IMG/VR virus record: IMGVR_UViG_3300048127_000199
Strand: one strand, 5' to 3'
Source: an uncultured virus (IMG/VR IMGVR_UViG_3300048127_000199)
Lineage: Duplodnaviria > Heunggongvirae > Uroviricota > Caudoviricetes
DNA length: 64,000 bases
Shown: piece after piece, positions 21,276 through 63,699 of the stretch
Numbering within the stretch: position 1 is the stretch's first letter
Layout of the letters: each line of letters starts with the position of its first letter
Made by a program: the position numbers and the translations under genes
Notes under the pieces: generated by a model
The model's input: the letters and a program-made list of their open reading frames with translations, nothing else
Databases searched by the model: none
Told to the model about the DNA's origin: nothing

Positions 21276-23723
21276 ATGAACGCAGAACCCCAAGCTAATT
21301 TTACGCCAAGATGCCAAGCCATCATAAATGAATCTAAAAAATTATGCTCTAAACTAAGGCATGATTCAGTAGAGCCAATTCATTTATTTTCTTGTATTCT
21401 TAGTAATCAATTTAGCGTAATACCTGATTTATTGGCCACTTACTCTATTAGCATTGACGAAGCTATTACTTGCGTTTCGGCAAATCTTCAAAAAGTAAAA
21501 CCAATAGATAGGAATAGCACTTTCAATATACATTTCTCCAAAGACTGTAAAGAGGTTATATTTTCAGCTATTGAAATTTCAGAGCAGCTGTTGCATCCTT
21601 ATGTTGGGGTAGAGCACTTATTAATATCAATACTAGAGCAAAAAGACCCCCTAACTTCTGCAGTTTTAGAATCTCTTGAAATTAACTATAAAGAGTTTCA
21701 CGTTCTTTTGCATAATCAGTTATTTTTAGCCTCAGGAGTTGATAATATCGGATGGAGCCCTAGCCAATCATCAGTTAACCAAGAAAGCTCTGCAAGCGCC
21801 AAGCATAAATCCCAATCATCCTATCCCGCAATTGAGAAATATTGTAAAAATTTAAATAAAGTTGCAGAGCAAGATGGGTTCGCTAAGTTAGTTAGTAAAG
21901 ATGCAGAACTTAAAGTTCTATGCGAAATACTTTGTAGAAAAAATAAAAATAATCCTATACTGCTAGGAGAGCCAGGGGTTGGTAAAACTGCCATTATTGA
22001 AGGTTTAGCCTCCTCAATAGTAAATCAAACTTGCCCAAATATTCTATTAAATAAAAGTATATTTTCCCTAGATCTAGGGCTGTTAGTCGCTGGCACAAAG
22101 TACAGAGGTCAATTTGAAGAACGTCTCAAAAAATTATTAAATGAGTTTAAGAATTTCAAAAACTCTATTTTATTTATAGATGAAATACACACTATTATCG
22201 GGGCAGGTGGTGCAGAAGGATCAATGGATGCCTGTAACATACTAAAGCCAGCCTTAGCTAGGGGCGAAGTCTCTTGCATCGGCGCCACCACTTTGTCTGA
22301 ATACAAAAAAACTATCAGGAAAGATGGAGCTCTGTCTAGACGATTTCATCCTATTAAAGTAAATGAGCCTTCCACAGAAGAGACTCTCAAAATCCTCAAA
22401 GGCATTAGCCCGTTTTACGAAAAATACCACAAAGTTAAGTACCGAGATGAAGCTTTAACTTATTGCGTTAACCTAGCCGAAAAATATGTAAATGAAGGAA
22501 ATTTTCCAGACAAGGCTATAGATATTCTAGATCATGCAGGATCAAAATGTAAAATTAAAAACTTCAATATACCTGACGCTATAAAAGACTTAGAAAAAAC
22601 TATATCAGAGAGAATAGATTCCACCTCCTATCTCCATAATGGATCTATGACAGGAGACCTTGAAGAACTTTTCGAAAAGTATGAGTCAATGCTGAAAGAG
22701 TGGGACAAAGATTATGAAAAAAATTTACCTATAATTTCTAAAAAAGAAATACTTGATATAGTTTCTGAAAAGTGCAATGTATCAATAAAAGATATGGATG
22801 AATCTACCGTAGAAAAAGCTAAATCATTAAATAGGTTTTTATCTAGGAAATTAATTAACCAGAAAGATGCAATAAAATCTTTGTCCAATTGCTTAAAGCG
22901 TAATTTATGTGGATTAAAAGAGCCCAATAAACCTTTGGGATCATTTTTATTTTTAGGGTCTACAGGAGTGGGTAAAACTTATCTTTCAAAACTTCTTTCA
23001 TCTCACTTATTTCAATCAAAAGATTCTTTTATTTCGATAGATATGTCAGAATACTCTGAAAAAAATTCAATATCTAAATTTATAGGATCAGCTCCTGGTT
23101 ATGTAGGCTATGAAGAAGGAGGAGGGTTAGTTGAAAAATTGAGAGCAAACCCTCATGCAGTTGTTCTTTTTGACGAGATAGAAAAAGCTCATCCCGATGT
23201 CTTGAATATCCTATTACAAATTCTAGAAGAGGGATCTTTAACTGATAATACTGGATATTCTGCAGATTTCTCGAAGTCTATTGTTATTGCGACCAGCAAT
23301 ATCGGCTCTGAAAAAATAATAGAAAATAAATCATTAGGTTTTATGTCTTCCCCAGAAAGTGCAGAGTCTTTGGCTATTAAAGATTTAGAAAAATCAATGA
23401 GGCCAGAACTAATCAATAGGTTCGATGAAATTATAGTATTCAATCAATTGAAGGACGATGACTTTAAATCAATTATAAATATAGAAATATCTAAAATTAA
23501 ATCAATGCTTAAGCATTCTAAAATACAAATCAATGTAGACGAAAAAGCTTTAGAGTATTTATATAATTTAAATTTTGATAAAAAATATGGAGCAAGATTT
23601 ATATCAAGAACATTAAAAAACGAGCTACAAAACCCTCTATCTGACTTTATACTTAAAAATTACCAACAAAAGAAAATCAATATTACCACTACGAAAAATG
23701 GAAGAGGAATTAAACTATATTAA
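21276..23723 (+). CDS. clpC: ATP-dependent Clp protease ATP-binding subunit, ClpA/ClpC type
   Basis: Two Clp-N repeats, GEPGVGKT, FIDEIH, GSTGVGKT, GSAPGYVGY, FDEIEKAH, ClpP-docking loop SLGF. Confidence 0.92.
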   Translation: MNAEPQANFTPRCQAIINESKKLCSKLRHDSVEPIHLFSCILSNQFSVIPDLLATYSISIDEAITCVSANLQKVKPIDRNSTFNIHFSKDCKEVIFSAIEISEQLLHPYVGVEHLLISILEQKDPLTSAVLESLEINYKEFHVLLHNQLFLASGVDNIGWSPSQSSVNQESSASAKHKSQSSYPAIEKYCKNLNKVAEQDGFAKLVSKDAELKVLCEILCRKNKNNPILLGEPGVGKTAIIEGLASSIVNQTCPNILLNKSIFSLDLGLLVAGTKYRGQFEERLKKLLNEFKNFKNSILFIDEIHTIIGAGGAEGSMDACNILKPALARGEVSCIGATTLSEYKKTIRKDGALSRRFHPIKVNEPSTEETLKILKGISPFYEKYHKVKYRDEALTYCVNLAEKYVNEGNFPDKAIDILDHAGSKCKIKNFNIPDAIKDLEKTISERIDSTSYLHNGSMTGDLEELFEKYESMLKEWDKDYEKNLPIISKKEILDIVSEKCNVSIKDMDESTVEKAKSLNRFLSRKLINQKDAIKSLSNCLKRNLCGLKEPNKPLGSFLFLGSTGVGKTYLSKLLSSHLFQSKDSFISIDMSEYSEKNSISKFIGSAPGYVGYEEGGGLVEKLRANPHAVVLFDEIEKAHPDVLNILLQILEEGSLTDNTGYSADFSKSIVIATSNIGSEKIIENKSLGFMSSPESAESLAIKDLEKSMRPELINRFDEIIVFNQLKDDDFKSIINIEISKIKSMLKHSKIQINVDEKALEYLYNLNFDKKYGARFISRTLKNELQNPLSDFILKNYQQKKINITTTKNGRGIKLY

Positions 23724-24855
23724 AACATTTCAAGAGGAGTATGAACCAGACTCCCATAATTTTGTAAATGAATATTTCGAAATATTTAAGTCAAACTTTG
23801 AAAATAACGAGCTACCTAAAGAAATTAGATTTTTAGACGAACAAGGTTTTAGAATTTCTGCGCCTACCACCAATAAAACTTATCTTACAGTTTTCTTTTC
23901 GAAACCCGAAAAACCTTCATATCTGGGTAAATTTTCCCTAGTATCAGATGGGGCAGATATTAAAAAAGAATCAGTTATATTAAAAGGTCTTAAAGATTTA
24001 GATGTTTCTCCTGAACTTTTATACTATGGAGAACTACAAGATGGCTCTGACGTAAATTTTTTGTTTACTACCGTAGAAGGTGTTAATAACAATTTAAATG
24101 GAACAAATCCTGATTTTTGGTGGGCAAATCATAAAGAAATTTTACTAGAGAGATTACTATTACTGCACAAACTAAAAAATAACATATCCGTTTCGCGGTA
24201 TGAAGATATTTTTATTTCCGATTTTTTCGAAAACGTTTTGTTTGAAGAAGAAAATTTATTTGATTTTGTTTTTCAGTCAGACTCGGATCCCGCTTTTTAT
24301 GATTTCATTTTAAAATGTAAAGATAGCTGCTTGGATATATGTTCGAAATTAGATAAGAAGGAATTTGTTCTGTGCCATAATAATTTATGCAAGTCTTCTG
24401 TTTTGTTTGAGCCAAACTCAAAAGAGAAATTTAAATTTATAAATTTTCATAAATCAATAATAGCTCCTCCTGCTATTGATTTACTGTCAATATATCACAG
24501 GCTATCTCTAGAAGAAGATGACTACCATAGTAGCTTCTCAAGAGATAGCTTCTCTGAAATTAAAAAAGTTTATGAAAAAATTGCTGGAGTTGAAATTGAC
24601 TTTTCTGTTGATATTAGGTTCTTAAATACAGTTCAAAGAATTTTATTACTCATTTATGAAAATAATTTTCCGCCAGTCGCCTTATTTCAATCAAATGCAT
24701 TGTTAAAATTCCGATCTAGAAGCTCTGAATTAAAATACCTCAAGGACAGGTTTTTAAATATTATTAAATCTCCAGAATTTTCTCATAAAAAACAATTTGA
24801 ATATATTCAAAACGCGGACGATATCCCTCTGCAAGAATTACTTTTATACGGTTAA
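23698..24855 (+). CDS. APH/choline-kinase-fold protein with degenerate catalytic motifs
   Basis: K..E..IL..L....P.L, LCHNNL..SSV, FINFH, P..DL. Confidence 0.55.
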   Translation: MEEELNYIKTFQEEYEPDSHNFVNEYFEIFKSNFENNELPKEIRFLDEQGFRISAPTTNKTYLTVFFSKPEKPSYLGKFSLVSDGADIKKESVILKGLKDLDVSPELLYYGELQDGSDVNFLFTTVEGVNNNLNGTNPDFWWANHKEILLERLLLLHKLKNNISVSRYEDIFISDFFENVLFEEENLFDFVFQSDSDPAFYDFILKCKDSCLDICSKLDKKEFVLCHNNLCKSSVLFEPNSKEKFKFINFHKSIIAPPAIDLLSIYHRLSLEEDDYHSSFSRDSFSEIKKVYEKIAGVEIDFSVDIRFLNTVQRILLLIYENNFPPVALFQSNALLKFRSRSSELKYLKDRFLNIIKSPEFSHKKQFEYIQNADDIPLQELLLYG

Positions 24856-24895
24856 TTATGTATTGAATTTTTTATATTTCTATATATAATAATTC

Positions 24896-25465
24896 ATGAG
24901 CATAGCCCTTTATAAACCAAACAGTAAAAACACTGGAACTGCAGTTAATTTAAGAATTGGCTCAGGCAAATATAATGTACCTGCCCTTTACATAGGCGCA
25001 ATTCAACAGCATAGCTGGGACGACTCTAGAAAGCTAGGCTCTTTTAGCGAGAATGCAAAAAACCCCGACAAAACAATCAATATTAAGTTAAACGAATTTG
25101 AGTGTGGCGAAATCTTAAACTCAATAAAGGATCGGGTGGAGTATTCAACTTTTCATAAATTTGATGATAACCAAACAGTGATTAAATTCACACCATGGGA
25201 CAAGCAAAGAAAAATTTCTAAATACAATCCTAAAAGCAAAACTTTCGATGAAACAAGCGTTACAGTAAGCGCCTTCGGTTTAACAATTACAAGAAATGGG
25301 AATCAAAGTTTTAAAATTTCAATTGAGCCAGGAGAAGTTAGGGTAATTGAAGAGTTTTTAAAAAATTATTTGATTGATTTCTTTAAATCAAAAGCAGAAA
25401 ATTTAGACAAAAATAAATCATCCGCTACTCCAACTGAAAATTTATCTGAAGATCCTCCTTTTTAA
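24896..25465 (+). CDS. Putative ssDNA-binding protein
   Basis: Beta-rich with acidic C-terminal tail SEDPPF resembling the SSB C-terminus; TATAAT 5 nt upstream. Confidence 0.4.
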   Translation: MSIALYKPNSKNTGTAVNLRIGSGKYNVPALYIGAIQQHSWDDSRKLGSFSENAKNPDKTINIKLNEFECGEILNSIKDRVEYSTFHKFDDNQTVIKFTPWDKQRKISKYNPKSKTFDETSVTVSAFGLTITRNGNQSFKISIEPGEVRVIEEFLKNYLIDFFKSKAENLDKNKSSATPTENLSEDPPF

Positions 25466-27375
25466 TGAAGAAAGTTCTAATTCACAGCAATCACTCAAAA
25501 GCCTTTACAGGTTTCGGCAAACATACTAAAAATTTATTAATCTTTTTGCAAAAGACAGGTAAGTATGAATTAATAGAGTTTGCTAACGGTAGAAAGTGGT
25601 CAGACCCTACTTTATCTAAAATGCCATGGAAAACATATGGCTCTGCGCCTGATAGCGATATAGCTACTCAAAAAGCCTCAAGAGACCCCAAGTTAAAACG
25701 TCAGCTAGGTTACGGGGGCATCATGATAGACGAAGTTATAGAAAAAGAAAAACCTGATGTTTACATAGGGATAGAAGATATATGGGCCTTTAGTGGCTAC
25801 TGGGAAAAGCCTTGGTGGGATAAAATTAATCATGCAGTTTGGACAACCCTTGACAGTTTACCTATTCTACCTGAAGCAGTTAGCGCTGCTCCTAGAATTA
25901 AAAACTATTTTGTTTGGGCTTCTTTTGCGGAAAAGGCTATGAAAGAGCTTGGGCACGGTCACGTCAAAATGATAAGAGGTTCTTTAGAAACAAATCAATT
26001 TTTTAAATTAAATAAAAATGATAAGCTAAAACTAAGGTCTGCATTCGGGATAGACGAAAAAGAATTCATTATAGGCTTTGTATTTAGAAACCAACTCCGC
26101 AAAAGCGTTCCCAATCTATTAGATGGTTTTAAAATATTCAGAGATAAAAATCCTGAATCCAAAGCTAAGCTTTTACTGCACACAAACTGGTCAGAAGGCT
26201 GGGACATTCCTAGGCTTTTAAAAGAGAAGGAAATAGACCCATCATTAGTTTTAACCACTTACTATTGCTCTAAATGTAAAAATTATGAAGTCAAAACATT
26301 TGTAGGTCAACAACAAAATTGTAAGTTTTGTGGTTCAGAAAAAACACAAAATACTACTAGCGTTAATGCTGGTGTGTCAGAAGATCAATTAAATCAAGTT
26401 TATAATTTAATGGATGTCTATTGTCACCCTTTTACATCTGGCGGGCAAGAGATTCCGATTCAAGAAGCTAAATTAACTGAATTAATTACTTTAGTAACTA
26501 ACTATAGTTGCGGGGAAGACTGTTGTACTGAAGAAAGTGGAGGTTTGCCACTCAACTGGAAAGAATATCGAGAGCCTGGCACACAATTTATCAAAGCTAC
26601 CACAGATCCTTTCAGTATTTATAAACAATTAAATAAAGTTTATAAAATGAATGAAAAAGACTTAGAGCAAAAAGGTAAAATTGCCCGTGAGTTTGTCTTA
26701 AAAAACTTTTCAATAGAAGTCATAGGAAGGCAAGTAGAAGAGTTTATTGATTCTTGTCCTGAAATTGAATATAATTTTGACATCAAGCCTCATAACAAAA
26801 AAAGAAACAACAATTATCCATTACAAAAAATAGAAGATAATCTAGAATGGCTTATAGATCTCTATAAAAATATTTTAATAAGAGATGTTGATGAAAACGA
26901 TGACGGTATCAAGCATTGGATGGCAAAGATACAGCAGGGAGGCTCAAGAGAAAGTATTCACAACTACTTCATTTCGGTAGCAAATAAAGAAAACCAAGAA
27001 ATTGTGGATTCTCTTGATAGGATCCTACGAGAAGATACTTCTAAAAAAATTGCTATAGTCGTAAATGAAAACGCTACAGAAACATTTCTCTGCACATCCT
27101 TACTACCTTCAATAAAGAGACTGTACGCAGATCATAATATATATTTCTTTGCCCCTGAAAATAGCCTAGATATACTTAAGGGTAATCCTCATATATATAA
27201 AAGCCTACCCGTCTCGGAAGATCTTTTTGATTGTATTTCTCTGGAAAAGAAAAGGGAAGGCGAGAATTTCTTTGATGTAGTCTATTATCCATCAGATGCT
27301 TCTTCAGGAGCATTTCGCTATTGTCATCAAGGAAGAGATAAAATAGAATATAAAACAGAATATGCACATACTTGA
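25465..27375 (+). CDS. GT-B (GT4-like) glycosyltransferase with Zn-ribbon insertion and extra C-terminal domain
   Basis: TGFG, RNQLRK, YNLMDV..P..GGQEIPIQEA; CSKC...CKFC insertion. Confidence 0.8.
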   Translation: MKKVLIHSNHSKAFTGFGKHTKNLLIFLQKTGKYELIEFANGRKWSDPTLSKMPWKTYGSAPDSDIATQKASRDPKLKRQLGYGGIMIDEVIEKEKPDVYIGIEDIWAFSGYWEKPWWDKINHAVWTTLDSLPILPEAVSAAPRIKNYFVWASFAEKAMKELGHGHVKMIRGSLETNQFFKLNKNDKLKLRSAFGIDEKEFIIGFVFRNQLRKSVPNLLDGFKIFRDKNPESKAKLLLHTNWSEGWDIPRLLKEKEIDPSLVLTTYYCSKCKNYEVKTFVGQQQNCKFCGSEKTQNTTSVNAGVSEDQLNQVYNLMDVYCHPFTSGGQEIPIQEAKLTELITLVTNYSCGEDCCTEESGGLPLNWKEYREPGTQFIKATTDPFSIYKQLNKVYKMNEKDLEQKGKIAREFVLKNFSIEVIGRQVEEFIDSCPEIEYNFDIKPHNKKRNNNYPLQKIEDNLEWLIDLYKNILIRDVDENDDGIKHWMAKIQQGGSRESIHNYFISVANKENQEIVDSLDRILREDTSKKIAIVVNENATETFLCTSLLPSIKRLYADHNIYFFAPENSLDILKGNPHIYKSLPVSEDLFDCISLEKKREGENFFDVVYYPSDASSGAFRYCHQGRDKIEYKTEYAHT

Positions 27376-28525
27376 ACACTTTTCTCTTAATTGCGGAATT
27401 AAATCTGCAGAGGCATTCATCCAGGAAGACTTTATCCCAGTAGCTTGTGATAAGTTTATATGTATTAATAATGACCATTCTATCAGTTCATTTAATTATT
27501 CTTATTGGTCTGACGTATTTGATATAATCAAACCTTATCTTGACAAATCTAATATTAAAATCATCCAAATAGGTTCACCCAAAGACCAGCTACTACCAAG
27601 CTGTGAAGATTTCCGACATATACAGACTAGACATCAAGGAGCTTATATAATTAATAGATCTGAATTATTCATAGGTTCTGACATTTTTTATTCAAACATT
27701 GCATCGCATTTTAACACTCCAGGAGTGCTTTTATTCGGGCCGATCCCTCCCTCCTGCACCGCGCCCTTCTGGAACAAGGATAAATTTGATATTTTGTGTG
27801 AAACAGAAAAATTTTCTTATTCCTCTAAAGAGTTAGAGAAATCAATTGATCAAATTAAGCCTGAAGATATAGCAAACGCTATACTTAAAAGGTTGAAAAT
27901 TCCATTTGAAAGCGATCAAAATACACAATTTATAGGTCAACTTTATGACAACAAAATTTTTGAAGTAATACCTAATTTTTCGCCGAACCCTGATTTTCTG
28001 AAAAATTCATTTATTACAATTAGAGCGGACTATGAAGAATCAGATGATCACATTCCTTCTTGGGCCTCAGGTCGTAAGGTCAATTTGATTACAGATAGAA
28101 AGATAGATTTAAATTTAATTAATGCCATTAAAAGTTCTTTGCAGGTTATCCATTTTCAAATACCAGATGATTGTAGTGAAGAAGTTATCTCAGAAAATCA
28201 ACAGTATTTTAAAACTATTAAAAAATTCGGCATAAACATTAGTTTATTCAGAAAAACAACTGAGTTTATAGAAAAACTTAGATTGCACTATTTTGACTGG
28301 AATGTTGAAGTTTTATCTCAAAAGAAACCTGGCGATGATGTTTTAAACAATAAAGATCTGTTTTTTTATTCTGGCAAACTGATCTTCTCAAATGGGAAAA
28401 AATACCCTTCCATTGAGCATGCCGTAAACGACGTAGAAAGTTCTACTGGAGTAAATAAAATCATAGATAGCGATTTATTTTGGTCAGAATCAGATCATTA
28501 TAGAATTATTTCAAAAAGTAATTGA
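27362..28525 (+). CDS. GT9/heptosyltransferase-like glycosyltransferase
   Basis: Y.YW..V, IIQIG, LFIGSD....IA....P.V.LFG, I..I.PE.I. Confidence 0.7.
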   Translation: MHILEHFSLNCGIKSAEAFIQEDFIPVACDKFICINNDHSISSFNYSYWSDVFDIIKPYLDKSNIKIIQIGSPKDQLLPSCEDFRHIQTRHQGAYIINRSELFIGSDIFYSNIASHFNTPGVLLFGPIPPSCTAPFWNKDKFDILCETEKFSYSSKELEKSIDQIKPEDIANAILKRLKIPFESDQNTQFIGQLYDNKIFEVIPNFSPNPDFLKNSFITIRADYEESDDHIPSWASGRKVNLITDRKIDLNLINAIKSSLQVIHFQIPDDCSEEVISENQQYFKTIKKFGINISLFRKTTEFIEKLRLHYFDWNVEVLSQKKPGDDVLNNKDLFFYSGKLIFSNGKKYPSIEHAVNDVESSTGVNKIIDSDLFWSESDHYRIISKSN

Positions 28526-28550
28526 CTTAGTTTATAATATATGTTATTAT
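28522..28550 (+). promoter_or_regulatory. sigma70-type promoter with extended -10
   Basis: TTGACT-17-TATTAT with TG at 28542; ATG at 28560. Confidence 0.7.
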
Positions 28551-28559
28551 ATATAAACA

Positions 28560-29348
28560 ATGAAAAAAACAACTAAGCAAACAAAAATAGATAATAGCTC
28601 TGGTCCAAATCTTTATACTAGAGACGAAAACGGATTACTACAAAACCATCAATATGAATTTAATGACGATGGCTCAATCAATTGGAGAGCCATGATTAAA
28701 GATGAGCATTTATTTCCAAATAGATCTTGGTTTCAAACTAGAGGAAAAGATTATCCTAAAACTATAGAAGGTCTCGCGGATCACCAACTTTTAATAAAAT
28801 TAAGTGGCATAAAAGAACTAGCTAAACTCAGAGGATTTTCTTCGGTTAACTATAAAACTGTAAAATGCGAAGAAGACCATGTAGCTGTATCTTGTTCGAT
28901 TACTTTTTTAGCCAACTATGAAACCAACAATGAGCCTATTGTGTTTGAAGATATGGCCAATGCAACACTGAACAATACTAGCAGCTTCGCAACTAAATTT
29001 CTAGAAACAATCGCTTGTAATAGATCATTTGTGCGCTGCGTTAGAAACTTTTTAAATGTCCATATTGTCGGAGATGACGAAATCGATAAATCAAACAATA
29101 CTCAGCAGAATCTTACCCAGAGAGAAACTGAAGCGCAGTCAAATTCAGACATCTCTCCTGCTGGAATACTCGCTAGCCTAGCAAAAGATAAATTTGGCAT
29201 CAATAACTATACCGACTTCAAAAGCAAACTTCGGGAATTGTGGCAAAATGATTTGTATAAAAATGCTGACACTAAAAATTGGTCAGACTTTTCAGACATT
29301 CCTCCTAAAGAAGCGAGAGCTCTACTCAAAGCGCTACACTCATCTTAA
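28560..29348 (+). CDS. Putative single-strand annealing protein (Rad52/RecT-like)
   Basis: GIKELA..RG, MANA, LETIA.NRSFVRCVR..L..DEI pattern. Confidence 0.45.
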   Translation: MKKTTKQTKIDNSSGPNLYTRDENGLLQNHQYEFNDDGSINWRAMIKDEHLFPNRSWFQTRGKDYPKTIEGLADHQLLIKLSGIKELAKLRGFSSVNYKTVKCEEDHVAVSCSITFLANYETNNEPIVFEDMANATLNNTSSFATKFLETIACNRSFVRCVRNFLNVHIVGDDEIDKSNNTQQNLTQRETEAQSNSDISPAGILASLAKDKFGINNYTDFKSKLRELWQNDLYKNADTKNWSDFSDIPPKEARALLKALHSS

Positions 29349-29384
29349 TTAGGTGTAACCTTCGAAGTTCTTTGAAAAATTTAT

Positions 29385-29782
29385 GGGCGTGTACTGGATT
29401 CGATTTAAATTGGATTAGTATACTGCAAGTAGGAGTTGCATCTGGCTCCTAAAAAAGGTGCAAACAATTACATGGCAACAAAAACCGTGTTAAAGCTTTT
29501 GGCTTAAAAGCTAAAAAGCTTGCCTTAGCAGCTTAGTTCTGCTACCTCGTAACTTTTGACGCAGATAAAGAGATTACGAGGTCATCAATCTGCAAAACAG
29601 ATAAAAGTTTATCCGTTTCATAAACTGTACCATTGAGTATTCGAAGGCCTCAAGTTTGAGTGAATAATTGAAATGGTTAGTTGGATGTTAATATCATAAC
29701 TGTAAAAAAAATTAACTAAACTTGTAGATGTATATCTACAGAAAATTTAAAGACGCGGGTTCGACTCCCGCCACGTCCACCA
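29385..29782 (+). ncRNA. ssrA: tmRNA
   Basis: Acceptor stem GGGCGTG/CACGTCC with G3:U70, ACCA 3' end, GGATTCGA D-loop region, GCGGG-TTCGACT-CCCGC T arm, helix TTTAAATT/AATTTAAA; tag ORF 29474-29536 GNKNRVKAFGLKAKKLALAA*. Confidence 0.95.
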
Positions 29783-29784
29783 AT

Positions 29785-43636: not shown

Positions 43637-43637
43637 T

Positions 43638-48681: not shown

Positions 48682-48682
48682 A

Positions 48683-50702: not shown

Positions 50703-50748
50703 ATTTTAAAATTATGGAAATAAATAAATTTAACTATATAATAATATT

Positions 50749-51057: not shown

Positions 51058-51087
51058 AAAAATATCAGTCGAATTTAGCGGCAGACA

Positions 51088-52218: not shown

Positions 52219-52227
52219 CTTTACTAA

Positions 52228-53088: not shown

Positions 53089-53119
53089 AAACCTTAATAA
53101 TGTAATATAATTTTATAGA

Positions 53120-55112: not shown

Positions 55113-55344
55113 CAAATATACTGGCCCAAGAGATTTTGATGAGCAAACCGATGCATTTCGTTTTGATCTTGATGATATGTGTGATAGATATTTAGAAGAG
55201 TTTGACATTAATGTTTTTACAATAGCTGGAGCTTTGATGGAAAAAATTAAAGAGTTACTTGGAGACGATATAGTTTTTAATTTAGATGAGCCAGATGAAG
55301 AAGAAGATGATGAAAACCTTGACGATTTTAATCTAGATGGATAG
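55105..55344 (+). CDS. Small very acidic protein
   Basis: D/E-rich; ends DEPDEEEDDENLDDFNLDG. Confidence 0.65.
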   Translation: MSDKYTGPRDFDEQTDAFRFDLDDMCDRYLEEFDINVFTIAGALMEKIKELLGDDIVFNLDEPDEEEDDENLDDFNLDG

Positions 55345-55501
55345 AAATAAAAAATACCAACAAACAGATAAAGGGAAAGAATCATTATCTAGAGCTAGAA
55401 AAAAATATGATGAAGCAGACAAGGAAAAACGTAGGCAACAGAAGCGAGATTACATGCGTCGCAAAAGAGAAGAAGACCCGAATTATTGCAAGTGGAAATA
55501 A
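55337..55501 (+). CDS. 54-aa basic protein (not in ORF track)
   Basis: MDRNKKYQQTDKGKESLSRARKKYDEADKEKRRQQKRDYMRRKREEDPNYCKWK*; overlaps the acidic gene. Confidence 0.55.
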   Translation: MDRNKKYQQTDKGKESLSRARKKYDEADKEKRRQQKRDYMRRKREEDPNYCKWK

Positions 55502-55539
55502 AAACGGTGTAATTTAATCATAATTGTCTATTGATTGTT

Positions 55540-57810
55540 ATGAAAATTTTAATCTTATTGTTTTTATCTTCAATTTTCTGTTTTGGGGATACGCTATATT
55601 TTAATAACGGAAAAAATCTGAAAGGCGATATTGTAGAGGCGAATGCTACACACGCGTTAATTAAAAGATCAAGTGATCTGCAATTATTCAGGATTTCAAT
55701 TGATTCTTTAACAAAAGACAACCAAGCTTATATTAAAAATAATTTTCCACCCAGTCATGAAGCCTTGCCTAAATTTAAAAGACCATTATCTGATAGAGAT
55801 TTAAAAACTCATGCTTATTATATTGATAGCTTAATTGAAGCAAAACTCAGAGGATATAATCTTAGGCCAAATAAGGAGGTCGATGATGCTATATATTTAC
55901 GTAGAGCATATCTTAAAATTATCGGGAGGACCCCTTCTTTAGCAGAAGTAAACTCTTTTTTTGATGATAAAGATAAAAATAAAAGATCAAAATTAGTTGA
56001 TCAGTTATTAGGTAGTGAAGGATATGTAAGTCACTGGTTTAATTTTTGGGCGGATATATTAAGAATTAAAGATAGGTTAACCAATAGAATATCTGGAGTG
56101 CCTTATAAGAATTATGTAAAAGAGTTTATATCAAATAACAGACCATACGATGAATGGGTTAGAGAAATGTTATCCTCATCAGGCTCTCTATGGGTTAAAG
56201 GCAACGAAGGAGTAAGTTATTTTGCTCGTGATGTCAATATGCCTCTTGATAGCATGGCTAACACAGTACGTATTTTTTTAGGCACAAGCCTCGAGTGCGC
56301 CCAATGCCATGACCATCCTTTTGATCGTTGGACTCAAAAACAATTTTACGAAATGGCTGCATTCACAAGTGGTTCGACTAATTTGAGAACAAAAAGTCCA
56401 GAAAATTTAAGTGTCTTAAATAGATTAGCGAGAGATGAAAGAAGAAAATTAGAGCAGTCCGATCAACCTCAAAAATCTAGACAGCTACAAAATAGCATAA
56501 GAGATATCCAAGATATTTTGCAAACTGGATTAACGAGTTTAGGTAACGGAAAGATCAGTTTGCCTAAAGATTATCAGTATGATAATGCAAAACCTAATGA
56601 AGCTTTACTAGGGAAAACGATTTTCGGTAAAGAGGTAGATATTAAAACTGTTGCTCCAAATGCAGGTTCTAGGGAAATTTATGCTAATTGGTTGGCGTCT
56701 GAATCAAATCCAAGATTTACAGCTGTTATTGTAAATCGCTTGTGGAAGGAAGTTTTTGGATTAGCTTTAATAGAGCCAATTGATAATATGTTCGATGACA
56801 CTCTTGCTACCGACCCAAAATTGCAATTACATCTAGAAAAAGTCATGGTTGCCTTAAATTATGATTTAAGAGAGTTTTTAAGAATATTGTATAACACTAA
56901 AACATTCCAAAAAGAGTCTGTAACCAGAGATGTAATACCTAAGGATAATAAAGATCAATCTATGCCTGTAGAAGTTGAGTGGATTATCGCAGGGCCAAAT
57001 ACCAAAGCTCAGTCTAAAGGAGCTGTCCCTTATTTTTATCAAGGGCCGATATTAGAAAGAATGAGTGGGGAGCAAATTTGGGATTCTTTAGTAAATTTAA
57101 CATTTGATAATATAGATTCTAGAAAATTAGAGCAGAATACAAAAGGCTATGAACAATTCGAAACTCTTTCGTCTATGACTGGAGAAGAATTATTTAAAGA
57201 TATAATGGCTAAAATAAATAAAACTGAAAGGCCTAAAGAGGCAAGTAAAACAAAATTTGGTAAACCTATAAATACTGATTGTCCTATTAAGCCTGGTAGA
57301 GCAATCGACCCAACGTTGTTAGCTTTAAACGAAAATGGAGAAACTTTAGCATTTTGTTGTGAATCTTGCGTAGATAAATACAAATCTCAAAAGAAAGTCA
57401 GAGAGCAACAATACAAGCAGAATTTTGTGAAAGATAGAAATTCAGTTAGAGCCTCCGAACTATCTTCTCCTGCTCCGATTGGTCATTTAATCAGAGAGTT
57501 TGGTGGCTCAGATAGAGAGCAGATCGAAAATGCAGAAAACAGCGCCTCGGCGACACAGGTATTAAATTTATTAAACGGCTTCGTTGAAACAAGACTATTG
57601 AAAAATAAAAACTTTGAAGTTATTAAAGCAATTGAATCCCAAAAGGCGTTAAGTGATAAAATAACAGTAGGTTATAAATATATATTAAACCGAGAGCCTA
57701 CTTCTAAAGAATTAAGGATATTTACTGATAATTTAAAAAATACGAAAGATGCATATAAAGAAATAATATGGGTATTAATTAATAGTCATGAATTTATGTT
57801 TGTTAGGTAA
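55540..57810 (+). CDS. DUF1549/DUF1553 (planctomycete PSD1-type) secreted protein with CxxCH and a YHS-like insertion
   Basis: Signal peptide; YLRRAYL..IGRTP, WADILR, N.PYD..VRE.L, FLGTSLECAQCHDHPF, NP.F..VIVNRLW...FG, CPI...FCC..C, W.LINSHEF. Confidence 0.9.
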   Translation: MKILILLFLSSIFCFGDTLYFNNGKNLKGDIVEANATHALIKRSSDLQLFRISIDSLTKDNQAYIKNNFPPSHEALPKFKRPLSDRDLKTHAYYIDSLIEAKLRGYNLRPNKEVDDAIYLRRAYLKIIGRTPSLAEVNSFFDDKDKNKRSKLVDQLLGSEGYVSHWFNFWADILRIKDRLTNRISGVPYKNYVKEFISNNRPYDEWVREMLSSSGSLWVKGNEGVSYFARDVNMPLDSMANTVRIFLGTSLECAQCHDHPFDRWTQKQFYEMAAFTSGSTNLRTKSPENLSVLNRLARDERRKLEQSDQPQKSRQLQNSIRDIQDILQTGLTSLGNGKISLPKDYQYDNAKPNEALLGKTIFGKEVDIKTVAPNAGSREIYANWLASESNPRFTAVIVNRLWKEVFGLALIEPIDNMFDDTLATDPKLQLHLEKVMVALNYDLREFLRILYNTKTFQKESVTRDVIPKDNKDQSMPVEVEWIIAGPNTKAQSKGAVPYFYQGPILERMSGEQIWDSLVNLTFDNIDSRKLEQNTKGYEQFETLSSMTGEELFKDIMAKINKTERPKEASKTKFGKPINTDCPIKPGRAIDPTLLALNENGETLAFCCESCVDKYKSQKKVREQQYKQNFVKDRNSVRASELSSPAPIGHLIREFGGSDREQIENAENSASATQVLNLLNGFVETRLLKNKNFEVIKAIESQKALSDKITVGYKYILNREPTSKELRIFTDNLKNTKDAYKEIIWVLINSHEFMFVR

Positions 57811-58180: not shown

Positions 58181-58215
58181 TTACACTTGTGTTGATTTTT
58201 CTTTAAAATGTGTAA
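58181..58215. promoter_or_regulatory. Divergent pair of GTGTAA motifs
   Basis: TTACAC 58181-58186 (8 nt from minus ATG 58172); GTGTAA 58210-58215 (10 nt from ATG 58226). Confidence 0.65.
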
Positions 58216-58225
58216 TAATAATATT

Positions 58226-59518
58226 ATGAACTTAAATACAATTGATGAATTAGGGAGAAGAGAATTTATAGCGCATGCCGCAAAAGCATGCTTCGGAGTA
58301 GGGCTTATGCCGATGGCAGGAGCTTATATTAACAATACAGTGAGCGCTCTTGAGCCTAGTACTAGAGTTCCGACAGCTAGGCATGTCATTTATTTAAATA
58401 TGTCAGGAGCGATGTCGCATCTTGACACATTTGCCCCAAAGCCTGACGCTCCTGATATTCAAGGGCCTACCAAATCAATTGCAACAAGCGCTGATGGAGT
58501 TATTTTATCCGAAAATCTACCAAAAACAGCGGAACTAATGCATCTTGGGTCAATTATCAAAACAATGAATACTAGTCAAGGAGCCCACATGCAAGCAAGT
58601 TATTTAATGCACACTAGTTATCTTAAGAGGGGCACAATTGTGCATCCTACATTCGGGAGTTGGGTGTCAAAACTTTCAGGTTCAATGAATAAAACAATAC
58701 CTAGCAATGTTAAGATTGGAGGTGGAGGAGGCGGAGCTGGCTTTCTAGAGTCTAAATACGGCGCTCTTCCCATTAACAACCCTTCCTCAGGTCTAGCTAA
58801 TAGTAAAATGGCTTCGTATTTAGATCATGAGCATTTTCAAAGCAGAATATCTATTGCCGAGCAATTGAATCAAAATTTTTCTACAGAATTTCCATTAAAA
58901 CAAGTAAGAGCTTACAGTGACTTATATAAAGACGCAATAAAATTAATGAATAGTAATGATCTAAATGCTTTTGATATCACTAAAGAGCCAGCATCTGCAA
59001 GTGATCTTTATGGAAACACTAACTTCGGTAAAGGTTGCTTGTTAGCTAAAAGGCTAGTTGAGCATGGTGTTAGGTATGTAGAAGTTACGCGAGGAGGTTG
59101 GGATACTCATGATAATAACTTTGAAAGAGTTGCTGCAAATTGTGCTGATATCGATCAAGCTTTAAGCGGACTTCTTATTGATTTAGACAGAAGAGGGCTT
59201 TTATCAGAGACTTTGGTTGTATTAACCTCTGAATTTGGCAGAACGCCAAACATAAATGGAAGAGACGGGAGAGACCATTGGCCTTATTGCTTCACAGCTT
59301 TTCTCGCAGGAGGTGGAGTGAAAGGTGGATTTACTTATGGTGAGACAGACAAAACAGGCAGATCTCCTGTTGAAGGAAAACCTATCAAGCCAGAAGATTT
59401 GAATGCTACTATAGCTCATACCCTTGGTTTATCTTTAAATAATTATCAATATTCCCCGTCAGGAAGACCTTTTACTATAGCCCATAAAGGCGAGCCTTTG
59501 TTTGATATTTTATCTTGA
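58226..59518 (+). CDS. DUF1501 family protein with Tat signal
   Basis: GRREFI Tat motif; VIYL.M.GAMSHLDTF.PK, FGKGCLLA.RLVE.GV, GWDTH, SEFGRTP, GRDHW, AGGG.KGG. Confidence 0.92.
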   Translation: MNLNTIDELGRREFIAHAAKACFGVGLMPMAGAYINNTVSALEPSTRVPTARHVIYLNMSGAMSHLDTFAPKPDAPDIQGPTKSIATSADGVILSENLPKTAELMHLGSIIKTMNTSQGAHMQASYLMHTSYLKRGTIVHPTFGSWVSKLSGSMNKTIPSNVKIGGGGGGAGFLESKYGALPINNPSSGLANSKMASYLDHEHFQSRISIAEQLNQNFSTEFPLKQVRAYSDLYKDAIKLMNSNDLNAFDITKEPASASDLYGNTNFGKGCLLAKRLVEHGVRYVEVTRGGWDTHDNNFERVAANCADIDQALSGLLIDLDRRGLLSETLVVLTSEFGRTPNINGRDGRDHWPYCFTAFLAGGGVKGGFTYGETDKTGRSPVEGKPIKPEDLNATIAHTLGLSLNNYQYSPSGRPFTIAHKGEPLFDILS

Positions 59519-60799: not shown

Positions 60800-60806
60800 T
60801 TATAAC

Positions 60807-61028: not shown

Positions 61029-61044
61029 AAGTGTAATATTATTT

Positions 61045-62273: not shown

Positions 62274-62276
62274 ATC

Positions 62277-62534: not shown

Positions 62535-62548
62535 GTGTAATATATTTT

Positions 62549-62938
62549 GTGGAACATAAACATCTTTTAGTTAATGCTACTTTCGAGCAGACCCCATTTA
62601 CGAATACAGATTTCACAAATAAATGGCTTTTAAAAATTGTTAAATTAATTGACATGGAAGTTTTGCATGAACCTGTCTCGGTGAGATGTGATGAAAAAAA
62701 TAACGAGGGCGTTAGCGGGTTCTGTTTAATAACAACGAGTCATTTATCTTTGCATTCTTGGGAGAAAAAAACTCCGAATTTATTACAACTTGATGTCTAT
62801 AGTTGTAAAGATTTTGACCCTCATTTAATTGAGTATGAAATTAAAAAATTTCATCCAATATCTCTTGGGTTAAAATTCCTAGATAGAAGAGTACGAAATA
62901 CTAAAGGATGGTCAATGTTTGATGAAAGCAAGGCATGA
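62549..62938 (+). CDS. speD: S-adenosylmethionine decarboxylase proenzyme
   Basis: HKHLL, G.SG..LITTSHLSLHSW, LDVYSCK; GTG 62549 is 8 nt after GTGTAA. Confidence 0.85.
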   Translation: MEHKHLLVNATFEQTPFTNTDFTNKWLLKIVKLIDMEVLHEPVSVRCDEKNNEGVSGFCLITTSHLSLHSWEKKTPNLLQLDVYSCKDFDPHLIEYEIKKFHPISLGLKFLDRRVRNTKGWSMFDESKA

Positions 62939-63699
62939 AAATATATTTTAGGCATTACTCAGGAGCAATCACTGAATACGATTATTTATTTTTTGATTGC
63001 ATGGCAGAAGTTCCGTTAGACGAAGAAGAGCGAGCTTTGCAGGAAGGATGGTTACCTGATGACTATTTTGCTCCTAAAAATGCAGTAAAATCCCATTGGT
63101 ATCAAGCTCGACAAACAAGAATTGATTTAAGCAAATTTATTGATACTCGCAGTAGTCGAAAGGCTAGAAAAAAATGCAAAGATATTGTGGTCAAATATAC
63201 GAAAGCGAATAAAGCAAATATAGAAATTTTAAAAGATATATTTAATAAATATTTTGAATACAGAAACTTTAAGCCTTGGAAGCTAGAGCCTCTACTAAGT
63301 TTAGAGATTGAGAGAAAACATTTTTTAATTTATTATTTAAATGACGAACCTATTGCTTTTACATTTTTGAGAGATGTCGGAGAGAATAGTGTTTTCTCAA
63401 CGCAGTTTGCGTGGAATTATGAAAATCCAAAATTATATTTAGGCAAATATGCAAACCTTGCAGAAATAGACTATTGTATTGCAAATAATAAAGACTATAT
63501 GTATACAGGAGTAGGGTATGAAAAAGCTTGTATATATAAGTCTGACTACCAAGGGTTTCAATTTTGGAACGGAGAAGCGTGGTCGAATAACACAGAAGAT
63601 TATAAATGGTTATGCGAGAGAGATTCTAAAATTGAAAAAACAAAAGATTTAGATAAAATAAAAAGATACGATGATAAAAATTTTTTTATAAATGATTAA
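62935..63699 (+). CDS. Arginyl/leucyl-tRNA-protein transferase-like (ATE/Bpt GNAT fold)
   Basis: AL..GW, R..RIDL..F, IAF, LG.Y..L.EI, Y.Y.G..Y....YK..Y. Confidence 0.6.
   Translation: MKIYFRHYSGAITEYDYLFFDCMAEVPLDEEERALQEGWLPDDYFAPKNAVKSHWYQARQTRIDLSKFIDTRSSRKARKKCKDIVVKYTKANKANIEILKDIFNKYFEYRNFKPWKLEPLLSLEIERKHFLIYYLNDEPIAFTFLRDVGENSVFSTQFAWNYENPKLYLGKYANLAEIDYCIANNKDYMYTGVGYEKACIYKSDYQGFQFWNGEAWSNNTEDYKWLCERDSKIEKTKDLDKIKRYDDKNFFIND

What the first reader, a model, noticed from the sequence alone, without database searches (positions are those of the whole stretch)
21276..63699. Possible phage-encoded protein-degradation toolkit: C-degron tagger, N-degron transferase and ClpP-docking unfoldase
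Seen: tmRNA with an LALAA tag (29385-29782), a full ClpA/ClpC with N-domain and SLGF loop (21276-23723), and an ATE/Bpt-like transferase (62935-63699). Each unit is preceded by the GTGTAA motif (29353, 21254, and 62535 for the speD-ATE operon). Established: ssrA tags and Bpt/L-F-transferase N-degrons both route substrates to Clp proteases, and the [LIV]GF loop docks on ClpP. Inference: the phage co-expresses degron writers and a reader to redirect host ClpP, for example against defence proteins or to recycle stalled ribosomes. The genes are not adjacent, and no clpP, clpS or smpB is in the window.
Basis: inference. Interest (0 to 1): 0.72.

Follow-up and report, generated by a model that had tools for sequence, protein, structure and literature searches.

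The report
Phage ClpC–tmRNA pair, separate transferase cassette
An uncultured ocean phage of about 194 kb carries a ribosome-rescue RNA, a ClpC-type protein unfoldase and an ATE-like transferase; the first two are fixtures of its lineage, while the transferase belongs to a separate, sporadic gene cassette, so a three-part protein-destruction kit is not supported.

Summary
All three parts are real. The tmRNA lies at 29385-29782. The gene at 21276-23723 is a full ClpC with an N-domain, two intact ATPase rings and an LGF ClpP-docking loop. The gene at 62935-63699 encodes an ATE_C/ATE1-fold aminoacyl-tRNA transferase.

They are not one inherited system. I sampled 19 related phage records through a different gene (RNR).
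- ClpC is in 18 of 19.
- tmRNA is in 14 of 19.
- Both are in 10 of 10 near-complete genomes.
- The ATE-like gene is in 5 of 19 (4 of 10 near-complete).
- It is in 0 of 30 other ClpC-bearing phage records.

The ATE-like gene travels instead with a speD-like decarboxylase and a 150-aa protein. That protein's only structural match is AglA, a thiolate-haem arginine-derivative hydroxylase (weak, Z 6.9).

GTGTAA is a real signal but a generic one. It precedes 33 gene starts in the near-identical complete genome.

No clpP, smpB or clpS is encoded, so any proteolysis depends on the host. The scan reached the same reading earlier on other DNA. That ClpC reads the tag remains untested.

The parts
21254..21259 (+). 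GTGTAA promoter-like motif 22 nt upstream of the clpC ATG
   Evidence: The position-specific enrichment of the motif was measured in G004.
21276..23723 (+). ClpC-type class I AAA+ unfoldase, 815 aa. It has an N-domain, D1, a short middle domain and D2 carrying the LGF ClpP-docking loop.
   Evidence: Pfam domains. It aligns end to end with ClpC 6em9 and 3j3s. Walker A/B motifs and the KYRG and GYVG pore loops can be read in the translation. The loop is conserved in 22 of 23 phage homologues. RNA-library contigs match 21291-21532 with 0 differences.
29353..29358 (+). GTGTAA motif 32 nt upstream of the mature tmRNA 5' end
   Evidence: At the equivalent place, 3 of 4 relatives carry a sigma-70-like TTGACT-N17-TATAAT-type promoter instead (read by eye).
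29385..29782 (+). One-piece tmRNA gene with a G3:U70 acceptor stem and an encoded CCA
   Evidence: ARAGORN and Rfam at 131.2 bits. The acceptor stem was read. A metatranscriptome contig matches 29427-29689 with 0 differences.
29474..29536 (+). tmRNA tag reading frame: GNKNRVKAFGLKAKKLALAA plus the TAG stop
   Evidence: Frame comparison across relatives and the resume codon in the Rfam alignment. ARAGORN's frame for the window (29460-29507) is not the conserved one.
62535..62540 (+). GTGTAA motif 14 nt upstream of a GTG start at 62549
   Evidence: The spacing matches the genome-wide mode.
62549..62938 (+). Divergent AdoMet_dc (speD-like) pyruvoyl-decarboxylase paralogue. It reads TSH where the canonical paralogue reads ESH.
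   Evidence: Pfam AdoMet_dc scores 48.3 bits and the NCBIfam SAM decarboxylase model 40 bits, below its cut-off of 75.65. The sequence is; one search gives the canonical paralogue. It lies directly upstream of the ATE-like gene in 12 of 12 close relatives.
62935..63699 (+). ATE_C / ATE1-fold aminoacyl-tRNA-dependent transferase, 254 aa, with no detectable ATE_N
   Evidence: Residue mapping comes from the HMMER alignment to yeast ATE1.
63692..64000 (+). First 103 codons of a 150-aa partner gene, cut by the window end. The family has an invariant Cys22-Pro23.
   Evidence: The full-length copy is in G004. It is adjacent to the ATE-like gene in 22 of 30 loci. It is present in exactly the 4 near-complete ATE-positive clade genomes and in 0 of 14 ATE-negative records. 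The model has pLDDT 94. Its only match above Z 5 is AglA 9ub3 (Z 6.9).

Best explanation
The window holds two separate units, not one kit.

Unit A is a core pair of this marine phage lineage: a ClpC-type unfoldase and a one-piece tmRNA.
- The tmRNA is transcribed from its own promoter. Host RNase P would process it and host AlaRS would charge it, since the G3:U70 pair is present.
- Host SmpB would bring it to ribosomes stalled on broken host messages. It then adds a basic 20-residue tag ending in the classical LALAA degron.
- The ClpC hexamer has two intact ATPase rings and a conserved LGF loop. It docks on host ClpP, because the phage encodes no ClpP.
- Tagged products are removed by host ClpXP and, I infer, also by phage ClpC on host ClpP.

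Unit B is an accessory cassette: a speD-like decarboxylase, the ATE-like transferase and a 150-aa Cys-Pro protein.
- The transferase keeps the acidic residue that binds arginine in ATE1 and the Tyr-Lys catalytic pair.
- It shows no ATE_N domain.
- It most likely moves arginine from Arg-tRNA onto a non-classical acceptor, probably a small amine made by the decarboxylase. The partner protein would then modify the product. The known analogue is AglC plus AglA in argolaphos synthesis.

Shown: the genes, the motifs, the distribution and the neighbourhoods. Inferred: every biochemical step.
For: Distribution, in 19 records sampled by an RNR small subunit 88-100% identical (25 of the 80 loci were asked, those with contigs of 80 kb or more; 6 were not held):
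- ClpC in 18 of 19 and 10 of 10 near-complete genomes.
- tmRNA in 14 of 19 and 10 of 10.
- ATE-like in 5 of 19 and 4 of 10.
- The 150-aa partner in 4 of 19, exactly the four near-complete ATE-positive genomes.

Arrangement. The tmRNA lies 109-202 bp downstream of clpC on the same strand in 3 records, and 1.5 kb downstream in a fourth.

Other phages. Among 30 other ClpC-bearing records, 11 carry a tmRNA and 0 carry the ATE-like gene (control 5 of 5). A paper reports tmRNA in 402 of 18,146 phage genomes, or 2.3% (PMC9004378, passages read).

ClpC. The [LIVM]GF loop is kept in 22 of 23 phage ClpCs that are only about 40% identical overall.

Host dependence. No clpP in 0 of 19 clade records. No smpB or clpS in 5 relatives.

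ATE-like protein.
- ATE_C is above its cut-off.
- Only ATE1 aligns over the whole protein (Z 16.5, 230 residues).
- E177, Y201 and K202 are invariant. They align with yeast ATE1 D277, Y303 and K304, positions the K. lactis study names as Glu277, Tyr303 and Lys304 (PMC9351520, passages).

Cassette. The speD-like gene is upstream in 12 of 12 close loci and the partner is adjacent in 22 of 30 loci, including distant lineages. The partner's single match above Z 5 is AglA (Z 6.9, 141 of 150 residues; next best 4.5). AglA is a Cys-ligated haem enzyme. Its substrate is made with AglC, ArgRS, tRNA and arginine (PMC12866846, passages).

Expression. RNA-library contigs match clpC and the tmRNA exactly.
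Against: - No experiment links this ClpC to the tag.
- From recall, ssrA-tagged proteins are handled mainly by ClpXP in E. coli and B. subtilis, so ClpC is not the textbook reader.
- clpC and tmRNA lie 10-17 kb apart in 4 of the 14 records with both, and more than 70 kb apart on opposite strands in another 4.
- In 3 of 4 relatives read, the tmRNA has a sigma-70-like promoter while clpC has GTGTAA, so the two need not be co-expressed.
- Both genes are common in large phages generally, so genome size confounds the 11 of 30 figure.
- The clade records are related, so the counts are not independent events.
- For unit B, the AglA match is below the Z of 8 at which such matches become trustworthy. 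Pfam sees no YqcI/YcgG domain.
- The fold search cannot tell a protein acceptor from a lipid or small-molecule acceptor. MprF, FemX, ATE1 and Sbb17 are within about 3 Z units of each other.
- RNA libraries can contain DNA.
Confidence: 0.55

Rival explanations
1. ClpC and tmRNA are both lineage-core genes but act independently. The tmRNA only tops up ribosome rescue while host messages are destroyed. ClpC remodels or degrades particular host or phage proteins through its N-domain, or acts as a chaperone alongside the phage Hsp20. It does not read the tag. Their adjacency in some genomes is inherited gene order.
For: - The distance between the two genes ranges from 109 bp to more than 70 kb.
- They have different promoter types in 3 of 4 relatives read.
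- The tag ends in the motif that host ClpX reads (recalled), so no phage reader is needed.
- The complete relative also encodes Hsp20 and an HSP90-like ATPase.
Against: - Both are kept in 10 of 10 near-complete genomes.
- The tmRNA is immediately downstream of clpC on the same strand in 3 records.
- The ClpP-docking loop is conserved in 22 of 23 homologues. That argues for a protease partner rather than a stand-alone chaperone.
Confidence: 0.25
2. The ATE-like enzyme is a true protein N-terminal arginyl-transferase with changed acceptor specificity, for example basic or other non-acidic N-termini. In the phages that carry it, it feeds host ClpS with ClpC or ClpA. The 150-aa partner acts as a helper or a substrate.
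For: - ATE1 is the only known family that aligns over the whole protein (230 of 254 residues).
- The arginine-pocket acid and the Tyr-Lys pair are invariant.
- A basic helix at residues 72-80 sits where ATE1 binds tRNA.
Against: - ATE_N is not detected in 0 of 21 members.
- Scores against the NCBIfam Bpt-type arginyltransferase models are 19-34 bits against cut-offs of 170-252.
- No clpS is encoded.
- The gene is tightly linked to a decarboxylase paralogue and an AglA-like protein, which is typical of small-molecule pathways.
- Small-molecule aminoacyl-tRNA ligases share the fold (9wqw, Z 14.6).
Confidence: 0.12
3. tmRNA writes C-degrons, the ATE-like enzyme writes N-degrons, and the phage ClpC reads both on host ClpP, all under one promoter class.
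For: - All three are present in the window and in 4 of 10 near-complete clade genomes.
- All three are preceded by GTGTAA here.
- Distant ATE-like genes lie 8-10 kb from a ClpC-like gene in five huge-phage fragments.
Against: - 6 of 10 near-complete genomes have ClpC and tmRNA without the ATE-like gene.
- 0 of 30 other ClpC-bearing phages have it.
- G012, rated complete, has the ATE-like gene without ClpC or tmRNA.
- GTGTAA precedes 33 starts genome-wide, including tail genes.
- The ATE_N pocket domain is not detected.
Confidence: 0.08

Closest known systems
ClpC of Bacillus subtilis and Staphylococcus aureus (PDB 3j3s, 6em8/6em9), partner of ClpP
   Same: It aligns end to end (E 3.5e-187). 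It has an N-domain, two AAA+ rings with Walker A/B motifs, KYRG and GYVG pore loops, and a short middle domain of 115 residues. The LGF tripeptide aligns with the ClpP-docking loop.
   Different: - It is phage-encoded, with no clpP, mecA-like adaptor or clpS found in the genome.
- Only the second N-domain repeat reaches Pfam Clp_N.
- It scores below every NCBIfam equivalog cut-off: ClpA 689 against 993 and ClpB 735 against 1232.
- It is about 38% identical to cellular ClpC by tblastn.
Phage-encoded tmRNAs, such as the OM43 phage Melnitz and pelagimyophages (PMC9004378)
   Same: It is a complete ssrA gene in a lytic-looking marine phage that has no smpB. That paper also suggests the phage may maintain translation or tag proteins for recycling (passages read).
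   Different: - Those are two-piece tmRNAs and this one is one-piece. The paper says only 2.5% of one-piece phage tmRNAs were marine.
- Here the tmRNA is a lineage fixture that travels with ClpC.
- No glutamine riboswitch reached the Rfam threshold in the window.
Eukaryotic ATE1 and bacterial Bpt (Pfam ATE_N + ATE_C)
   Same: ATE_C is above its cut-off. The structural alignment to ATE1 spans the whole protein. The arginine-pocket acid (E177) and the Tyr-Lys pair (Y201, K202) are conserved.
   Different: - ATE_N is not detected in 0 of 21 members.
- It scores far below the Bpt equivalog cut-offs.
- The stretch where I recall the ATE1 motif GFRRSG, which holds Arg80, reads GWLPDD here. This rests on recall and was not tested with a tool.
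- It is locked to a decarboxylase paralogue and a 150-aa partner.
AglC plus AglA of argolaphos biosynthesis (Streptomyces monomycini)
   Same: The pairing matches: an Arg-tRNA-dependent ligase acting on a small amine, followed by a Cys-ligated haem enzyme of the four-strand sandwich fold (PMC12866846, passages). The phage partner's only match above Z 5 is AglA 9ub3 (Z 6.9, whole length). The partner has an invariant Cys near its N-terminus.
   Different: - The match is weak, at 5% identity and Z below 8.
- The phage protein is 150 aa against 243.
- Pfam finds no YqcI/YcgG domain.
- I did not establish AglC's fold family.
- No phosphonate genes were seen.
Complete Clp proteases of huge phages (ClpC-like unfoldase plus ClpP)
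   Same: These are phage-encoded Hsp100-type unfoldases with the [LIV]GF loop.
   Different: In the other ClpC-bearing records, 10 of 29 carry their own ClpP, and the five huge-phage ClpCs I aligned lack the N-domain. This lineage keeps the N-domain and has no ClpP in 0 of 19 records.

Membership tests
tmRNA (Rfam RF00023) | Covariance-model score above the gathering threshold over the full model | tested here: met
   131.2 bits against 47, covering model positions 1-374. ARAGORN also calls a tmRNA.
tmRNA (Rfam RF00023) | tRNA-Ala-like acceptor stem with a G3:U70 pair and a 3' CCA | tested here: met
   Read directly. The 5' GGGCGUG pairs with CACGUCC, placing G3 opposite U, and ACCA is encoded.
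tmRNA (Rfam RF00023) | Short tag reading frame ending in a hydrophobic degron and a stop codon | tested here: met
   GNKNRVKAFGLKAKKLALAA followed by a stop. 10 of 12 clade tags end in LALAA.
tmRNA (Rfam RF00023) | SmpB partner available | tested here: not met
   The phage does not encode it: 0 of 1 and 0 of 5. It would have to come from the host, which is unknown.
ClpC / class I Hsp100 unfoldase that partners ClpP | Two AAA+ modules with Walker A and B motifs and pore-loop tyrosines | tested here: met
   Pfam AAA and AAA_2. GEPGVGKT with FIDEIH, GSTGVGKT with LFDEIEKAH, and KYRG and GYVG are read.
ClpC / class I Hsp100 unfoldase that partners ClpP | [LIV]-G-[FL] ClpP-docking loop in D2 | tested here: met
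   LGF aligns with the loop of S. aureus ClpC. It is conserved in 22 of 23 phage homologues.
ClpC / class I Hsp100 unfoldase that partners ClpP | Double-repeat Clp_N domain and a short (ClpC-length) middle domain | tested here: met
   Clp_N matches residues 100-141. Residues 9-812 align with ClpC 6-801. The middle region is 115 residues. The first repeat is too divergent for Pfam.
ClpC / class I Hsp100 unfoldase that partners ClpP | NCBIfam equivalog score (ClpA, ClpB) | tested here: not met
   ClpA scores 689 against a cut-off of 993 and ClpB 735 against 1232. This library copy returned no ClpC equivalog.
ClpC / class I Hsp100 unfoldase that partners ClpP | Physical docking on a ClpP and recognition of the ssrA-type tag | not testable with these tools
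   The host and its ClpP are unknown. The tag is too short for the complex predictor.
ATE1 / Bpt aminoacyl-tRNA-protein transferases | ATE_C catalytic domain | tested here: met
   29.8 bits against a cut-off of 25. 14 of 21 family members match.
ATE1 / Bpt aminoacyl-tRNA-protein transferases | ATE_N domain, which holds the acidic-N-terminus pocket | tested here: not met
   0 of 21 members match even at E<=10. The N-terminal half does align structurally with ATE1.
ATE1 / Bpt aminoacyl-tRNA-protein transferases | Positive residue equivalent to KlAte1 Arg80 | tested here: inconclusive
   No tool printed a residue-level alignment of the N-terminal half. From a recalled motif it appears to be replaced by Leu-Pro-Asp-Asp.
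ATE1 / Bpt aminoacyl-tRNA-protein transferases | Arginine-pocket acid (KlAte1 Glu277) and the Tyr303-Lys304 pair | tested here: met
   E177, Y201 and K202 are invariant. They align with yeast ATE1 277, 303 and 304. Their roles come from PMC9351520.
ATE1 / Bpt aminoacyl-tRNA-protein transferases | NCBIfam bacterial arginyltransferase (Bpt-type) equivalog score | tested here: not met
   The best score is 34.2 bits against a cut-off of 170.
YqcI/YcgG thiolate-haem hydroxylases (AglA) | Four-strand sandwich fold matching AglA | tested here: inconclusive
   Z 6.9, rmsd 3.7, 141 of 150 residues aligned, next best 4.5. Foldseek found nothing at E<=0.001.
YqcI/YcgG thiolate-haem hydroxylases (AglA) | N-terminal cysteine that ligates haem | tested here: inconclusive
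   Cys22 is invariant in 52 sequences. It falls near AglA Cys44 by the aligned ranges, but no residue-level alignment was printed.
YqcI/YcgG thiolate-haem hydroxylases (AglA) | Sequence-family match | tested here: not met
   The protein has no Pfam family at E<=5. Only weak DUF6875 or DUF1415 hits appear in 2 of 12 and 1 of 14 relatives.

The most novel reading that the evidence does not exclude
The phage runs a private degradation channel. Its tmRNA writes an unusually basic tag (seven Lys/Arg in 20 residues ahead of LALAA). Its own ClpC, through its divergent N-domain or its pore, prefers that tag, and host ClpP does the cutting. The phage would then decide what is destroyed during infection without encoding a protease. 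Separately, the ATE-like, decarboxylase and AglA-like cassette would be the first phage pathway to use charged tRNA to build an N-modified arginyl-amine metabolite.
Probability: 0.15. Interest if true: 0.75.

Novelty: new variant of a known kind. Interest (0 to 1): 0.4.

Why it matters
Phage tmRNAs and phage Clp unfoldases are each known, but their purpose is not. Here both are fixed in a whole lineage of roughly 120-205 kb ocean phages, sometimes as direct neighbours. The lineage has no protease subunit and no SmpB. That gives a concrete, testable case of a virus plugging its own parts into the host's ribosome-rescue and proteolysis machinery.

The stretch is held by at least 15 seawater metagenome runs, some of which may be its source. 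These phages therefore look widespread.

The result also removes a tempting over-reading. The ATE-like gene is not the third leg of a degron kit. It belongs to a separate cassette that may use charged tRNA for small-molecule chemistry, which is of interest in its own right.

Tried and rejected
- Own assembly: it is not held. I used the nearest record G001 and the 97%-identical complete record G004 instead.
- Named relatives: tblastn of ClpC and of DnaE against the phage collection gave nothing above 60% identity.
- Host inference: the tmRNA 3' end matched 56 bacterial contigs spread over Bacillota, Acidobacteriota, Planctomycetota and others. This gave no usable signal.
- Sigma-70 promoter and terminator scans of 20900-30300 were at chance: 35 found against 39.3 expected.
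- The 150-aa partner: no Pfam family; PDB sequence search had a best E of 0.03; Foldseek against PDB gave nothing at E<=0.001; the Atlas gave only DUF1415/DUF6875 leads. One 572-aa fusion with a radical-SAM domain exists among the 150 best representatives listed (918 at E<=0.001). It may be a gene-calling artefact.
- The profile of the ATE-like family against PDB sequences gave ATE1 at only E 0.004, level with a spurious ORC2 hit.
- A complex prediction of the ATE-like protein with its partner was not run. The queue was full and I make no binding claim.
- Literature: I found no paper with phage + speD + arginyl-tRNA (0 hits). The listings for phage-encoded/tmRNA/ClpC, huge phages/tmRNA and cyanophage/tmRNA/siphovirus showed none describing a phage ClpC-tmRNA pair. 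These were search listings only, so absence from print is not proven.
- RNA runs: most of 21000-30000 had no contig cover. Contigs cannot show starts or strand, and the short matches at 29679-29731 and 29752-29782 carry unlike flanks, so they come from other organisms' tmRNAs.
- Earlier scan notes called the partner 'haem-oxygenase-like'. My model is an alpha/beta sandwich, not a helical haem-oxygenase fold. Only the AglA-type reading has any support.

Full report
**What the window is.** The 64-kb window has 33% G+C and is phage DNA. It carries a lambda-J-type tail module, a DnaE-type polymerase, RNR, a UvsX-like recombinase, DnaB, primase and sugar-modification genes. Its own assembly is not held. 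A complete IMG/VR record, G004 (193,844 bp, CheckV 100%), is 95-100% identical over the aligned blocks, except for a sugar-gene island. The window runs across G004's ends. I used G004 as a stand-in for the whole genome.

**The three parts exist.**

*tmRNA.* ARAGORN and Rfam both call it at 29385-29782 (131.2 bits against a cut-off of 47). The acceptor stem has the G3:U70 pair and CCA is encoded. ARAGORN printed the tag ANNYMATKTVLKLLA. The frame from GGC 29474 gives GNKNRVKAFGLKAKKLALAA and a stop. That frame matches the resume codon in the Rfam alignment. It is also the conserved one: 10 of 12 clade tmRNAs I translated end in LALAA and 2 end in EMVA.

*ClpC.* The 815-aa protein has Clp_N, two AAA+ modules and the D2-small domain. 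It aligns end to end with S. aureus and B. subtilis ClpC (E 3.5e-187). It shows Walker A/B motifs and pore-loop tyrosines in both rings. Its LGF aligns with the ClpP-docking loop. That tripeptide is kept in 22 of 23 phage homologues that are only about 40% identical overall.

*ATE-like protein.* It reaches Pfam ATE_C (29.8 against 25). A confident model (pLDDT 83) finds ATE1 first by Foldseek (8tzv, E 1.6e-9). By VIA-align, MprF, FemX, ATE1 and a small-molecule aminoacyl-tRNA ligase all score Z 14.6-17.6. Only ATE1 aligns over the whole protein (230 residues).

**The shared motif is real but generic.** GTGTAA occurs 24 times in the window against 22.8 expected. In G004, 33 of 58 copies sit 10-34 nt (mode 14) upstream of a called start codon on the same strand. 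Unrelated same-composition hexamers, one overlapping hexamer (AATGTG) and the reverse complement scored 1-8 of 53-154; the other overlapping hexamer, AGTGTA, scored 20 of 52. The genes it precedes include tail and structural genes. It also precedes the untranslated tmRNA, so it is a transcription signal rather than a ribosome-binding site. With only 8 nt between the motif and the ATG, many mRNAs would be nearly leaderless; this is inference. In 3 of 4 relatives read, the tmRNA instead has a TTGACT-N17-TATAAT-like promoter while clpC keeps GTGTAA (read by eye). The motif therefore does not mark a three-gene regulon.

**Distribution.** I sampled the lineage through a fourth gene, the RNR small subunit (80 loci at 88-100% identity). 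I asked for the 25 records of 80 kb or more, and 19 were held.

| Gene | Of 19 records | Of 10 near-complete genomes |
|---|---|---|
| ClpC | 18 | 10 |
| tmRNA | 14 | 10 |
| ATE-like | 5 | 4 |
| 150-aa partner | 4 | 4 (the same four as ATE-like) |

The partner is in none of the 14 ATE-negative records.

A second sample came from ClpC itself. That scan gave at least 591 stretches and kept 80 loci. I asked for the 36 with contigs of 38 kb or more that were not already counted, and 30 were held. The ATE-like gene is in 0 of 30, and the same profile rang in 5 of 5 known positives. A tmRNA above the cut-off is in 11 of 30. A published survey found tmRNA in 402 of 18,146 phage genomes, or 2.3% (PMC9004378, passages read). 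Genome size confounds that comparison.

Among the 12 close ATE-ascertained records, ClpC is in 7 and tmRNA in 8. One record rated complete (G012, flagged as a provirus) has the ATE-like gene alone.

**ClpC and tmRNA as a pair.** Both occur in 14 clade records.
- In 3 records (G067, G064, G074) the tmRNA lies 109-202 bp downstream of clpC on the same strand.
- In G062 it lies 1.5 kb downstream.
- In G004, G005 and the window it lies 5.7 kb downstream, after five inserted genes.
- In 4 records the two are 10-17 kb apart.
- In 4 records they are more than 70 kb apart on opposite strands.

The clade has no clpP (0 of 19). Five relatives have no smpB or clpS. Pfam on 142 further ORFs of G004 found none of these either, though it did find Hsp20 and an HSP90-like ATPase. 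By contrast, 10 of 29 other ClpC-bearing phage records carry their own ClpP. The five huge-phage ClpCs I aligned lack the N-domain.

The most economical reading is that this lineage supplies an unfoldase and a tagging RNA that both depend on host partners. That ClpC reads the tag is inference. From recall, ClpXP is the main ssrA reader in model bacteria.

**The ATE-like gene belongs elsewhere.**
- A divergent AdoMet_dc paralogue (TSH where the canonical copy has ESH) lies directly upstream in 12 of 12 close loci.
- A 150-aa gene is adjacent in 22 of 30 loci, including lineages with only 24-29% identity.
- G004 also has a canonical speD two genes further on and a spermidine synthase.
- The ATE-like family keeps E177, Y201 and K202 invariant. 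These align with yeast ATE1 277, 303 and 304. The K. lactis study names those positions as the arginine-binding acid and the catalytic Tyr-Lys (PMC9351520, passages). Arginine is therefore a likely donor.
- ATE_N, which holds the acidic-N-terminus pocket in that study, is not detected in 0 of 21 members.
- The partner models at pLDDT 94 as a four-strand alpha/beta sandwich with an invariant Cys22-Pro23.
- Its only match above Z 5 among 48,161 chains is AglA (Z 6.9, 141 of 150 residues; next best 4.5).
- AglA is a Cys-ligated haem enzyme that hydroxylates an arginine derivative. That derivative is made with AglC, ArgRS, tRNA and arginine (PMC12866846, passages).

The match is weak and no sequence family supports it. 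The small-molecule reading is a lead, not a result.

**Expression and occurrence.** At least 15 seawater DNA runs hold the stretch, and some may be its source. In four metatranscriptome runs, contigs match the tmRNA (29427-29689, 0 differences), clpC (21291-21532, 0 differences) and the genes between them. RNA libraries can contain DNA, and contigs show neither ends nor strand.

**Earlier scan notes.** I had already stated my reading. After that, the scan's index showed that other agents reached the same conclusion on related phages: the ClpC-tmRNA pair is conserved and the ATE-like gene sits in a separate cassette. Two of their leads I tested myself: the AglA resemblance and the paper on phage tmRNAs. 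Their label 'haem-oxygenase-like' does not fit my model.

**Verdict.** The three-part kit is not supported. A narrower ClpC-tmRNA partnership on host ClpP and SmpB is plausible but untested. The finding is a new variant of known kinds and was already seen by this scan elsewhere, so its interest is moderate.

Noticed in passing
window, e.g. 9486(-), 11823, 16763(-), 21254, 39283(-), 40358(-), 40773, 43199, 55507, 58181(-), 58210, 61031, 62535: GTGTAA(T) lies 14-24 nt before start codons, leaving only about 8 nt between the motif and the ATG. It also precedes the tmRNA. It looks like a phage-specific -10-type promoter that would give nearly leaderless mRNAs. In G004, 33 of 58 copies are so placed.
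   Followed up: partly
window 29460-29536: ARAGORN picks a different frame (ANNYMATKTVLKLLA) from the conserved one (…LALAA) for this tmRNA and for L043. Automatic tag calls in this phage group are unreliable.
   Followed up: yes
window 55531-57810 and 58208-59518; also 37-7014: The window has a PSCyt2/PSD1 (DUF1549/DUF1553) protein next to a strong DUF1501 protein (362 bits). It also has a 2325-aa protein with an FGE-sulfatase domain. From recall, such pairs are typical of Planctomycetota and their allies. This is an unusual cargo for a phage and a possible host hint.
   Followed up: no
window 47325-53105 versus G004 46952-56364: A sugar-modification island (glycosyltransferases, formyltransferase, DegT aminotransferase, epimerases) is replaced between two phages that are otherwise about 97% identical.
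   Followed up: no
G004 67828-68232 and 177205-178107 (L058:7828-8232, L063:17205-18107): The complete relative also encodes a canonical speD (113 bits) and a spermidine synthase. The phage therefore carries polyamine synthesis beside the divergent speD paralogue.
   Followed up: partly
window 17335-18072, 17951-18694, 18676-21252: The DnaE-type polymerase is encoded in pieces. A weak PHP-domain ORF, an RNase_T-type exonuclease ORF and a polymerase core that starts at the NTPase domain overlap one another.
   Followed up: no
G004 76951-77579 (L058:16951-17579): ThyX is split into two adjacent ORFs covering profile positions 1-105 and 124-187. This could be a frameshift, an insertion or a real split.
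   Followed up: no
window 1-1225 versus G004 192620-193844 and 1-844: The window bridges the two ends of the 'linear' record G004 with an 844-bp overlap. The genome is therefore circularly permuted or terminally redundant.
   Followed up: no
L231, L233, L234 (regions of G067, G074, G062): In relatives, the tmRNA is preceded by a near-consensus TTGACT-N17-TATAAT-type promoter and a conserved leader ending …TTTAT before the mature 5' end. In the window, GTGTAA takes that place.
   Followed up: partly
records G034, G039, G041, G044, G049, G050, G052, G053, G059, G060: Other ClpC-bearing large phages carry their own ClpP (10 of 29). The five huge-phage ClpCs I aligned lack the N-domain. This is a different solution from the lineage studied here.
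   Followed up: partly
protein P0230 (572 aa): One relative of the 150-aa partner is fused behind a radical-SAM/SPASM enzyme. This is a possible hint of small-molecule or peptide chemistry, or a gene-calling artefact.
   Followed up: no
clade records: The RNR small subunit is 88-100% identical across records whose ClpC is only 40-45% identical. RNR is far more conserved than the rest of the genome, or has been exchanged recently.
   Followed up: no
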